A stretch of DNA of 63,846 nucleotides, counting the filler, from Limisphaerales bacterium (GTDB taxonomy: Bacteria; Verrucomicrobiota; Verrucomicrobiia; Limisphaerales; SIBE01), in assembly GCA_044225505.1 (NCBI GenBank). It is 3 parts of 3 records of this genome, joined end to end, with 100 filler letters (N's around TTAATTAATTAA, not from the genome) between each part and the next. Parts side by side here need not be neighbours in the genome. Positions count along the whole stretch, not along the records: positions 1 to 24,905 come from JBGAIN010000124.1; 2 more parts are not named here. One strand, written 5' to 3'. Below the pieces are notes generated by a model, which made no database searches, was not told the origin of the DNA, and worked only from the letters and a program-made list of their open reading frames with translations. The position numbers were made by a program, and so were the translations under genes. The first letter of the stretch is position 1. Each line of letters begins with the position of its first letter. Shown in pieces: positions 3,171 through 49,743 of the stretch.

Positions 3171-3246
3171 TGGTACTCCCGCCCAGAATTGAACTGGGAT
3201 CAACGGTTTAGGAAACCGCTGCTCTATCCATTTGAGCTACGGGAGC
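3171..3246 (-). tRNA. tRNA-Arg (anticodon CCT)
   Basis: Reverse complement folds as a cloverleaf: acceptor GCTCCCG/CGGGAGT, D-arm GCTC-AAATGGATA-GAGC, anticodon arm GCGGT-TTCCTAA-ACCGT, T-arm CCCAG-TTCAATT-CTGGG, encoded CCA. Confidence 0.96.
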
Positions 3247-6468: not shown

Positions 6469-6591
6469 CGCTCTTGATATGCTTATAACAGGGATATAAC
6501 ACGGATATAACAGGGAAATAACACGGCTAAGATCCGAGGTAAAACCAGGTAAAAGCCCTGTCTATTCCTTGTTAGTAAGCTCGGAAGAGCG
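6469..6591. repeat. 123-bp dyad-symmetric element, copy 1 (16 + 4x11 + 3 + inverted 4x11 + 16)
   Basis: CGCTCTTGATATGCTT + ATAACAGGGAT ATAACACGGAT ATAACAGGGAA ATAACACGGCT + AAG + four degenerate inverted units + TAAGCTCGGAAGAGCG. Confidence 0.85.
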
Positions 6592-22878: not shown

Positions 22879-23001
22879 CGCCCCTGATCTGGACCAACCG
22901 CGGTGCAACGCCCATGCAAACACGGTGCAAGGCCGCTCACTGACCGGCGTTGCAGCGGCCTTGGACCGGCCTTGGACCGGCCTTGCCTCGAATGACCGCG
23001 G
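22879..23001. repeat. 123-bp dyad-symmetric element, copy 2 (GC-rich variant)
   Basis: CGCCCCTGATCTGGAC + CAACCGCGGTG CAACGCCCATG CAAACACGGTG CAAGGCCGCTC + ACT + GACCGGCGTTG CAGCGGCCTTG GACCGGCCTTG GACCGGCCTTG. Confidence 0.75.
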
Positions 23002-23701: not shown

Positions 23702-23892
23702 CATAGAATCGTCGTCAGACCACAGCGAGTGTTTCACGTGCGAGCAGGACGGAGGCTGGGTCTCGTCGGACGAATATGGCGCTTTTTCTGGCCTGGAAAA
23801 ATGGGCCATGCACTGGTTTTGCGCGCTTCGAAGGCCCTTAATCTTCTGCTGCCGAACTTCTTGTCGTGGTCCGACGAGGATGTAGGATGTAG
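23702..23892. mobile_element. MITE-like element with imperfect terminal inverted repeats
   Basis: Left CATAGAATCGTCGTCAGACCAC versus right (rev-comp) CCTACATCCTCGTCGGACCAC; right ~100 bp repeated at 24462-24565. Confidence 0.55.
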
Positions 23893-24461: not shown

Positions 24462-24565
24462 CCTGGAAAAATGGGCCATGCACCGGTTTTGAGCCGCTGG
24501 AAAACCCTTAATCTTCTGCTCCCGAACTTCTTGTCGTGGTCCGACGAGGATGTAGAGGATGTAGC
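24462..24565. repeat. ~100-bp direct repeat of 23792-23893 (IS/MITE end-like)
   Basis: Both copies share CCTGGAAAAATGGGCCATGCAC...CCCTTAATCTTCTGCT.CCGAACTTCTTGTCGTGGTCCGACGAGGATGTAG. Confidence 0.85.
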
Positions 24566-24905: not shown

Positions 24906-25005
24906 NNNNNNNNNNNNNNNNNNNNNNNNNNNNNNNNNNNNNNNNNNNNTTAATTAATTAANNNNNNNNNNNNNNNNNNNNNNNNNNNNNNNNNNNNNNN
25001 NNNNN
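24906..25005. other. Artificial contig-joining linker
   Basis: N run + TTAATTAATTAA (stops in all six frames) + N run, 100 nt. Confidence 0.98.
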
Positions 25006-25770: not shown

Positions 25771-25893
25771 CGCTCTTGATTCATATATAACACGGATATA
25801 ACAGGGAATTAACACGGATATAACACGGCTCTCTTCCCTGTTATTTCCCTGAAATTTCACTGTTAAATCCGTGTTAAATACGCCCCACGAGCG
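25771..25893. repeat. 123-bp dyad-symmetric element, copy 3
   Basis: CGCTCTTGATTCATAT + ATAACACGGAT ATAACAGGGAA TTAACACGGAT ATAACACGGCT + CTC + TTCCCTGTTAT TTCCCTGAAAT TTCACTGTTAA ATCCGTGTTAA + ATACGCCCCACGAGCG. Confidence 0.9.
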
Positions 25894-49643: not shown

Positions 49644-49743
49644 NNNNNNNNNNNNNNNNNNNNNNNNNNNNNNNNNNNNNNNNNNNNTTAATTAATTAAN
49701 NNNNNNNNNNNNNNNNNNNNNNNNNNNNNNNNNNNNNNNNNNN
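49644..49743. other. Artificial contig-joining linker
   Basis: N run + TTAATTAATTAA + N run, 100 nt. Confidence 0.98.

What the first reader, a model, noticed from the sequence alone, without database searches (positions are those of the whole stretch)
6469..6591. Dispersed 123-bp palindromic DNA element of helically phased 11-bp units (copy 1; same geometry at 25771-25893 and 22879-23001)
Seen: copies 1 and 3 share an exact ungapped layout of 16 + 4x11 + 3 + inverted 4x11 + 16 bp. Both begin CGCTCTTGAT-N6, have left units (A/T)TAACA(C/G)GG(A/C)(T/A) with ATAACACGGCT last, and end GAGCG. Across the 24 units of the three copies read inward, my count is A at position 3 in 21, G at position 8 in 22 and G at position 9 in 21. 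Neighbouring genes differ (ThuA/apbE, HerA-like ATPase, GIY-YIG), and no target-site duplication or adjacent recombinase is visible. It does not fit CRISPR (no spacers) or a REP hairpin, and I do not recognise it as a named element. Inference: AT/GC alternation at ~1 helical turn, symmetric about a single base over ~120 bp, suggests a site that wraps around or polymerises a protein. Candidates are a nucleoid/histone-like wrap, a gyrase-type site, a centromere-like site or recombinase arm sites; this could be an undescribed chromosome-organisation or recombination system.
Basis: partly seen in the sequence, partly recalled or inferred. Interest (0 to 1): 0.85.

Follow-up and report, generated by a model that had tools for sequence, protein, structure and literature searches.

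The report
Phased palindromes paired with cognate proteins
The repeat is one of about 190 scattered DNA palindromes built of 11-base units; they fall into about eleven sequence families, ten of them matched to their own copy of an unstudied basic protein, which points to an undescribed protein-DNA recognition system found in at least two bacterial phyla.

Summary
The three copies belong to two families (48 and 30 copies) among about 190 intergenic period-11 loci in about eleven unit families. Ten families also occur just upstream of their own paralogue of an unnamed ~190-aa protein: a basic N-domain with no fold match, related to the DUF6266 N-terminus, plus an Ig domain. Orthologues in sister species keep the same unit family in 4 of 4 well-supported pairs. 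A species-specific base change is shared by the gene-adjacent and the scattered copies. Four relatives without the gene gave 0 elements in 661 kb. A Bacteroidota genome shows the same pairing (13 of 14 genes). No hairpin covariation, target duplication or adjacent catalytic gene was found. Best reading (0.6): cognate binding arrays on which each paralogue polymerises, spread as gene-less copies by an unknown route. Binding is inferred, not shown. This scan noted DUF6266-linked 11-bp arrays before on other DNA (e1-5265558); the family-by-family pairing was not in the notes shown to me. Five paper searches found no description.

The parts
6469..6591 (+). Copy 1, family A (AT-rich unit, consensus ATAACACGGAT). 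Consensus-like arm 6485-6528, 3-bp centre 6529-6531, degenerate inverted arm 6532-6575, weaker outer caps. Gene-less copy between divergent ThuA-domain and apbE genes. Its matched gene lies outside the window (G000 C63:49023-49598, minus strand).
22879..23001 (-). Copy 2, family B (GC-rich unit, consensus CAAGGCCGGTG). Centre 22939-22941; the consensus-like arm is the right-hand one. Gene-less copy downstream of the HerA-like gene. Its matched gene lies outside the window (G000 C122:541-1116, minus strand).
25771..25893 (+). Copy 3, family A, centre 25831-25833, on a different contig (C217) from copies 1 and 2. Gene-less copy upstream of a 121-aa ORF with no family match.

Best explanation
Each element is a cognate binding array for one member of an unstudied family of small basic proteins (about 95-aa N-domain of three strands and three helices, related to the DUF6266 N-terminus, usually followed by an Ig/FN3-like domain). 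SHOWN: a gene of this family carries an 11-bp array about 80-360 bp upstream; each paralogue has its own unit sequence; gene-less copies of the same unit are scattered between genes; unit and protein lineage change together; most positions differ between sister species. INFERRED: one protomer or dimer sits on each 11-bp turn of double-stranded DNA, two head-to-tail rows meet at the centre and bend or coat about 110 bp, and the gene-adjacent copy works as operator and nucleation site. INFERRED more weakly: gene plus array is a minimal selfish or semi-domesticated unit, and the scattered arrays are non-autonomous copies that are gained and lost, with strand-cutting chemistry supplied in trans or by an unrecognised activity of the N-domain.
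For: Period-11 score of 22 or more upstream of 9 of 14 paralogues against 123 of 5756 genes. Matrices trained on 183 scattered loci, with gene-adjacent copies left out, score 10 of 14 paralogue upstream regions at 24.6-42.0 (null 97th percentile 20.1, n=571), each for a different family except the near-identical pair C53/C128; an eleventh is borderline at 15.6. In 4 of 4 cross-species orthologue pairs that had 100/96+ support and a called family on both sides, the family is the same. In G002 the family-A unit has T where G000 has G, both beside the orthologous gene and in 122 overlapping matches across the genome. N-domain net charge is +4 to +13 in the 11 array-linked G000 paralogues aligned and -2 in the two without an array. 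0 period-11 elements in 661,281 bp from four relatives in which the gene was not found, about 12 expected at G000 density, against 3 in 86,928 bp of G001. Flavihumibacter profundi: 13 of 14 members have a period-11 array upstream, and one unit family has 7 inverted loci, 2 gene-adjacent and 5 not. No arm-to-arm covariation. 0 of 190 loci lie inside genes, with 81.5% of the genome coding.
Against: No binding was measured. The pairing could also arise if array and gene are merely inherited together while another factor reads the array. Not every member has an array: period-11 score of 22 or more upstream in 10 of 22 loci of relatives (one more row was an N-run artefact and one had no upstream DNA), 7 of 9 and 3 of 10 Bacteroidota loci (five more show short downstream arrays by eye only). 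One family (J, 9 loci) has no matched gene in this 95%-complete assembly. The charge rule has exceptions (G026 L049 is +10 with no array). No mechanism of spread was found: no target-site duplication, no copies over 88% identical in families A and B, and no catalytic domain recognised. At least one position is shared between species, and two more elements adjoin the same gene in both, which fits selection on some sites.
Confidence: 0.6

Rival explanations
1. Packaging or coating signals: the protein nucleates on the array and spreads into a long nucleoprotein filament with its Ig domain outward, forming particles that carry host DNA out of the cell.
For: Basic N-domain plus surface-type Ig/FN3 fold; an 11-bp period equals the A-form helical repeat seen in filamentous archaeal viruses (recalled, no call); a DUF5675 gene lies downstream in one Bacteroidota locus; unchecked earlier notes place DUF6266 beside lysis genes.
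Against: No lysis, packaging or capsid family among 36 scanned neighbours in G000; PHROGs matches in only 3 of 150 members, one each; about eleven separate specificities in one cell are hard to explain by packaging alone; stand-alone N-domain genes without Ig also carry arrays.
Confidence: 0.15
2. A domesticated nucleoid or transcription system: each paralogue is a regulator or architectural protein and the scattered arrays are selected sites of its regulon.
For: All loci are intergenic; family A leans to divergent gaps (22 of 44, against 725 of 2183 gaps of 200 bp or more); one position is conserved between species; geometry is kept although copies are only 48-82% identical.
Against: No neighbour family recurs beyond chance; 5 of 5 syntenic G002 intervals with an element are empty in G000; the orthologues of the genes beside copies 1 and 3 lack arrays in 4 of 4 and 1 of 1 relatives; the gene family is patchy (6 of 60 relatives, 3 of 300 phylum samples) and itself changes neighbours.
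Confidence: 0.12
3. REP-like or terminator hairpins that act as single strands and are spread by an HUH (RAYT-like) transposase; the matched gene is a passenger.
For: Copies fold better than shuffles (z -3.3, -2.7, -9.1); the genome has 9 Y1 transposase genes; RAYT-like genes lie near 2 of 14 paralogues.
Against: Folding follows from any palindrome. Arm pairing equals the permuted expectation (1716 vs 1711+-15; 1007 vs 1026+-8). All gene orientations occur. No Y1 gene has a catalogued element within 3.5 kb. No Rfam match.
Confidence: 0.07
4. Strong sites for a general host factor (gyrase, HU or histone-like protein) selected for bendability.
For: Size and symmetry resemble the gyrase motif (about 130 bp, 10.75-bp GC period; PMC6379681 passages); the AT peak has nearly the same phase from the centre in most families.
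Against: The gyrase motif is degenerate, whereas these units are discrete sequences that track paralogues; four relatives without the gene show none in the DNA sampled; families A and B are symmetric about one base, others about two.
Confidence: 0.06

Closest known systems
REP / TnpA-REP (RAYT) pairs (PMC8266576 abstract and outline; PMC3733652 passages)
   Same: A gene beside its cognate repeat, many gene-less copies between genes, and co-evolution of protein and repeat.
   Different: REPs are 20-40-bp tagged hairpins read as single strands by an HUH enzyme. These are about 110-bp tandem-unit arrays without covariation, and the partner has no HUH or other known fold.
Ssn nuclease / SRM repeats (PMC11893778 passages)
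   Same: A small single-gene partner with many protein-repeat pairs, found by gene-repeat association.
   Different: SRMs are 20-50-nt hairpins and Ssn is a GIY-YIG nuclease; neither applies here.
parC / ParR of plasmid R1 (PMC2241845 abstract and passages)
   Same: Two sets of about five 11-bp units upstream of the cognate gene; one binder per unit is the model borrowed here.
   Different: parC units are direct repeats split by a 39-bp promoter, in one copy, next to an ATPase gene. Here the sets are inverted about 3-4 bp, number about 190 per chromosome, and no partition ATPase was seen.
IS607-family ends (PMC6188088 passages)
   Same: Four helically phased motifs nucleate a cooperative filament; no target-site duplication.
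   Different: IS607 TnpA is a serine recombinase between two ends; no such domain is present and half-elements bracketing a gene were not seen.
Pfam DUF6266 (PF19781)
   Same: The family profile matches the first 60-94 residues of 3 of 3 DUF6266 genes found (E 1.8e-7 to 1.9e-6 per genome); the Atlas lists DUF6266 clusters nearest at 0.83-0.85, a lead only.
   Different: No G000 paralogue matches PF19781; the C-terminal half here is an Ig/FN3 fold.
HU-HIG clade (PMC5499826 passages)
   Same: DNA-binding domain fused to Ig, with lineage-specific expansions and solitary genes.
   Different: No HU match by Pfam; that paper argues against sequence-specific binding and the passages read mention no cognate arrays.

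Membership tests
REP / REPtron | Short (20-40 bp) palindrome with a GTAG or CGTC tag | tested here: not met
   Consensus is about 110 bp of tandem units with a TTCG cap
REP / REPtron | Cognate HUH transposase gene flanked by the repeat | tested here: not met
   No catalogued element within 3.5 kb of any of 9 Y1 genes; six of them lie on contigs with no element
REP / REPtron | Acts as a folded single strand | tested here: inconclusive
   No compensatory pairing, but copies can fold; needs biochemistry
Ssn / SRM | GIY-YIG nuclease gene flanked by 20-50-nt hairpins | tested here: not met
   The matched gene has no GIY-YIG match; the orthologue of copy 3's neighbour has no array
MITE / IS derivative | Target-site duplication | tested here: not met
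   At most 5 of 48 and 5 of 30 copies share a 3-bp duplication at any end pair; at most 2 at 4 bp
MITE / IS derivative | Autonomous element with the same ends around a transposase | tested here: inconclusive
   No half-elements above shuffled scores except contig-edge or variant copies; the assembly has 342 contigs
MITE / IS derivative | Filled and empty alleles with defined junctions | tested here: inconclusive
   5 of 5 syntenic intervals are empty in G000 but too diverged to align junctions; no joint skipping copy 1 or 2 among those shown for 4 runs
parC / ParR type II partition | Two sets of 11-bp units upstream of the cognate gene | tested here: met
parC / ParR type II partition | Direct orientation of both sets, single copy | tested here: not met
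   Inverted sets, 4-48 scattered copies per family
parC / ParR type II partition | Adjacent partition NTPase gene | tested here: inconclusive
   None among 36 of 83 listed neighbouring ORFs scanned
Strong gyrase site | About 130 bp, symmetric, periodic GC content | tested here: met
   against PMC6379681
Strong gyrase site | Degenerate sequence, independent of a dedicated gene | tested here: not met
   Discrete unit families track paralogues and gene presence
Strong gyrase site | Gyrase cleavage | not testable with these tools
   Needs Topo-seq
DUF6266 (PF19781) | Score over the Pfam cut-off | tested here: not met
   0 of 13 paralogues; no match in G000, though the control genomes gave none either
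DUF6266 (PF19781) | Homologous N-terminal domain | tested here: met
   Profile A3 hits 3 of 3 DUF6266 genes over residues about 6-94
HU/IHF (HU-HIG) | HU fold | tested here: inconclusive
   Not listed in fold searches of the N-domain; strand-helix order differs by my reading
Rfam RNA families | Match at gathering score | tested here: not met
   Only one tRNA in the window

The most novel reading that the evidence does not exclude
A new class of DNA-addressing system: a family of thousands of small proteins with a fold not matched in the PDB, each reading its own 11-bp unit by polymerising along a palindromic array, and each spreading its array through the chromosome without any known transposase, possibly by coating and moving the DNA as a filament. 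It would be both a new kind of mobile element and a natural library of orthogonal protein-DNA pairs.
Probability: 0.3. Interest if true: 0.95.

Novelty: categorically new. Interest (0 to 1): 0.82.

Why it matters
It gives a testable function to a large orphan family (4222 clusters at 50% identity) and, through the shared N-domain, to DUF6266. Each gene sits beside its predicted target, so hundreds of protein-site pairs can be read from genomes and the recognition code of a new DNA-binding fold can be worked out. It also offers a case of intergenic repeats that multiply with a partner lacking any known catalytic domain, which bears on the open question of how bacterial repeats spread. A cultured carrier exists (Flavihumibacter profundi KCTC 62290, record title). 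Orthogonal cooperative binders could be useful as tools.

Tried and rejected
Recurring neighbour family for families A and B: none beyond chance among 371 genes; the partner gene appeared only after widening to other families (3 of 14 homologues among 251 neighbours, p 0.012). Recombination-site reading: intervals with an element were 5 syntenic, 8 broken, 2 at contig edges, against 9, 16 and 1 for control gaps of 250 bp or more; 39 element intervals without an orthologue pair were left out. Tyrosine recombinases: 2 of 11 lie about 1 kb from an element. Gene remnants beside scattered copies: 0 of 183; the 7 hits among 190 are the intact genes. Empty alleles in four sequencing runs: no joint skipping copy 1 or 2 among the rows shown; contigs only, so no proof of absence. 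Homodimer prediction: no verdict. Fold search of the N-domain: best Z 4.2 (rmsd 5.1, 56 aligned), no Foldseek match at E 0.001; weak ANTAR-domain rows are not trusted, and absence does not show a new fold. The iterated census drifted between families (C53 and C128 to B, C43a to A), and split family A; family counts come. The count of 182 is not de-duplicated. The metagenome scan gave one partial locus. The strict family-B pattern matched only G000 of 61 genomes, although G001 has a looser copy beside its orthologue. The nine-module HTH lead was not followed. Junction alignment between species failed because intergenic DNA is too diverged. Gene calls in the scripts come from my own hexamer model, not a standard caller. 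Paper searches that found no description of the element or family. Supplements of PMC3733652 and PMC5499826 were not read and could list related repeats or families.

Full report
OBSERVATION. The window is three contigs of genome G000 (9.04 Mb, 342 contigs, 95% complete) joined by N linkers. A unit matrix finds inverted arms almost only at spacers of 3 modulo 11 and none in shuffled DNA. A symmetric matrix gives 78 distinct copies: 48 AT-rich (family A, copies 1 and 3) and 30 GC-rich (family B, copy 2). Copies are 48-82% (A) and 55-88% (B) identical over the core; conservation ends about 60-70 bp from the centre; there is no target-site duplication and no arm-to-arm covariation. Arms are unequal: mean difference 6.5 against 3.4+-0.4 by permutation in A, and 10.5 against 4.2+-0.5 in B.

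A SUPERFAMILY. A sequence-free scan shows period 11 is special in this genome: 169 tandem arrays against 31, 2, 63 and 1 for periods 9, 10, 12 and 13, and 170 palindromic hits against 6, 0, 11 and 0, with none in shuffles (a few are side hits of long arrays). Competitive clustering assigned 190 of 196 candidate loci, while 0 of 588 shuffles passed. The 183 scattered loci fall into eleven unit families of 48, 30, 25, 22, 13, 12, 12, 9, 4, 4 and 4. None of 190 lies inside a gene although 81.5% of the genome is coding, by my own gene calls. 160 of 190 have TTCG or CGAA within 75 bp (no control run). The AT-rich part of the unit sits at nearly the same phase from the centre in most families.

THE PARTNER GENE. 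Neighbours of families A and B showed nothing, but the wider set pointed to one protein family, which I first linked to DUF6266 from memory. G000 holds 14 full or near-full genes and two fragments; the 13 aligned are 21-39% identical to the first. Nine of 14 have a period-11 score of 22 or more in the 450 bp upstream, against 123 of 5756 genes. Matrices trained without the gene-adjacent copies pick 10 of 14 upstream regions, each for its own family except one near-identical pair; family A goes with the gene on C63 and family B with the gene on C122. Two genes without an array are second genes of tandem pairs, an arrangement kept in both sister species; their N-domains have net charge -2 against +4 to +13 for the other eleven aligned. 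Family J has no matched gene in the assembly.

THE PROTEIN. No Pfam family over its cut-off and no NCBIfam family; 4222 clusters at E 0.001; names read only 'hypothetical protein'. AlphaFold2 (pLDDT 94.5) gives three short strands (15-33), three helices (43-92) and an Ig/FN3 sandwich (96-188; best Z 10.4, rmsd 2.4, 93 aligned). The N-domain alone (pLDDT 84) has no clear match. It also occurs as a stand-alone gene of about 100 aa with arrays upstream, and its profile matches the start of 3 of 3 DUF6266 genes. Gly15 and Tyr72 are invariant in 150 sequences; whether Tyr72 is catalytic or structural is open, and some stand-alone versions lack it.

CO-VARIATION. The family is patchy: 6 of 60 relatives and 3 of 300 phylum samples. 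In a 35-sequence tree, four well-supported cross-species pairs with a called family on both sides share it (A, B, E, H); a fifth pair shares a weak best match, and other pairs had no call (kin are not independent, and no formal test was run). In G002 the family-A unit carries a fixed base change beside the orthologous gene and in 122 overlapping matches elsewhere, with the same 4+4 layout, 3-bp centre and polarity. Four relatives in which the gene was not found gave 0 elements in 661 kb; G001 gave 3 in 87 kb and G002 30 hits in 379 kb, in windows partly chosen for known copies. In the Bacteroidota genome Flavihumibacter profundi, 13 of 14 members have a period-11 array upstream (the other has period 10), and one unit family forms 7 inverted elements, 5 without a gene. 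Against a strict rule: many members elsewhere show no upstream array (12 of 22, 2 of 9 and 7 of 10 loci).

MOBILITY. Positions are mostly lineage-specific. Five of 5 syntenic G002 intervals with an element are empty in G000. Of 23 G002 loci, one position is shared, two more adjoin the same gene in both species, and one is the gene-adjacent copy. The orthologues of apbE (4 of 4) and of copy 3's neighbour (1 of 1) have no array. Orthologous partner genes mostly have different neighbours. Elements are not enriched at synteny breaks, carry no gene remnants, and no empty allele appeared among the rows shown for four runs. Gain and loss are therefore likely, but the route is unknown.

MECHANISM. The best reading (0.6) is cognate double-strand binding, one protomer or dimer per turn in two opposed rows, as ParR does on parC (PMC2241845 passages) and IS607 TnpA on phased motifs (PMC6188088 passages), embedded in a gene-plus-scattered-repeat logic like TnpA-REP (PMC8266576 abstract) and Ssn/SRM (PMC11893778 passages). 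Association and co-variation are shown; binding, polymerisation, autoregulation and spread are inferred. Rivals are a packaging filament (0.15), a domesticated regulon (0.12), a RAYT-spread hairpin (0.07) and a host-factor site (0.06).

NOVELTY. It fails a defining test for REP, Ssn, MITE, parC, gyrase site and DUF6266 proper. Five searches of the open library found no description; subscription papers and supplements were not seen. This scan had noted an orphan 11-bp TTCG/CGAA array tied to DUF6266, and a multicopy basic protein with 11-base arrays, in other genomes (unchecked AI notes, not independent support). I score it categorically new with interest 0.82, with the caveat that no activity has been measured.

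Noticed in passing
window 24906-25005 and 49644-49743: N linkers joining three contigs (C214, C217, C309); repeats reported there are artefacts.
   Followed up: yes
window 23792-23885 and 24462-24555: A 94-nt direct repeat (90% identical) in a gene-poor stretch; by eye its end resembles motifs upstream of family members in G007 (L053) and G297 (L091, L093), so it may be a further gene-less element type.
   Followed up: no
G000 C106:20177-20458 and many other contigs: A separate repeat of about 280 bp with inverted ends, 78-99% identical across the copies listed; looks like a young MITE family.
   Followed up: no
L021-L030 (G000 C106, C251, C63, C132, C256, C342) and C149: Composite modules of up to about 600 bp in which elements of families C, D and J recur in fixed order, 72-86% identical, with no clear gene.
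   Followed up: partly
L033:64-618 and L042:4025-4552: RAYT-like Y1 genes about 2.2 kb and 0.34 kb downstream of two paralogues; both score below the NCBIfam cut-off.
   Followed up: partly
L035:3362-4759: A DnaB-N/AAA_25 replication-type gene upstream of the tandem paralogue pair on C43.
   Followed up: no
   Followed up: partly
L063 and L073 against G000 C71:37992 and C165:999: Where sister species have a gene plus array, G000 has a gene-less element of another family beside the best-matching neighbour gene; possible preferred sites.
   Followed up: no
L079 and L081: Two Bacteroidota members have an in-frame stop in the N-domain.
   Followed up: no
window 3174-3246: One tRNA gene, the only Rfam match.
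   Followed up: no
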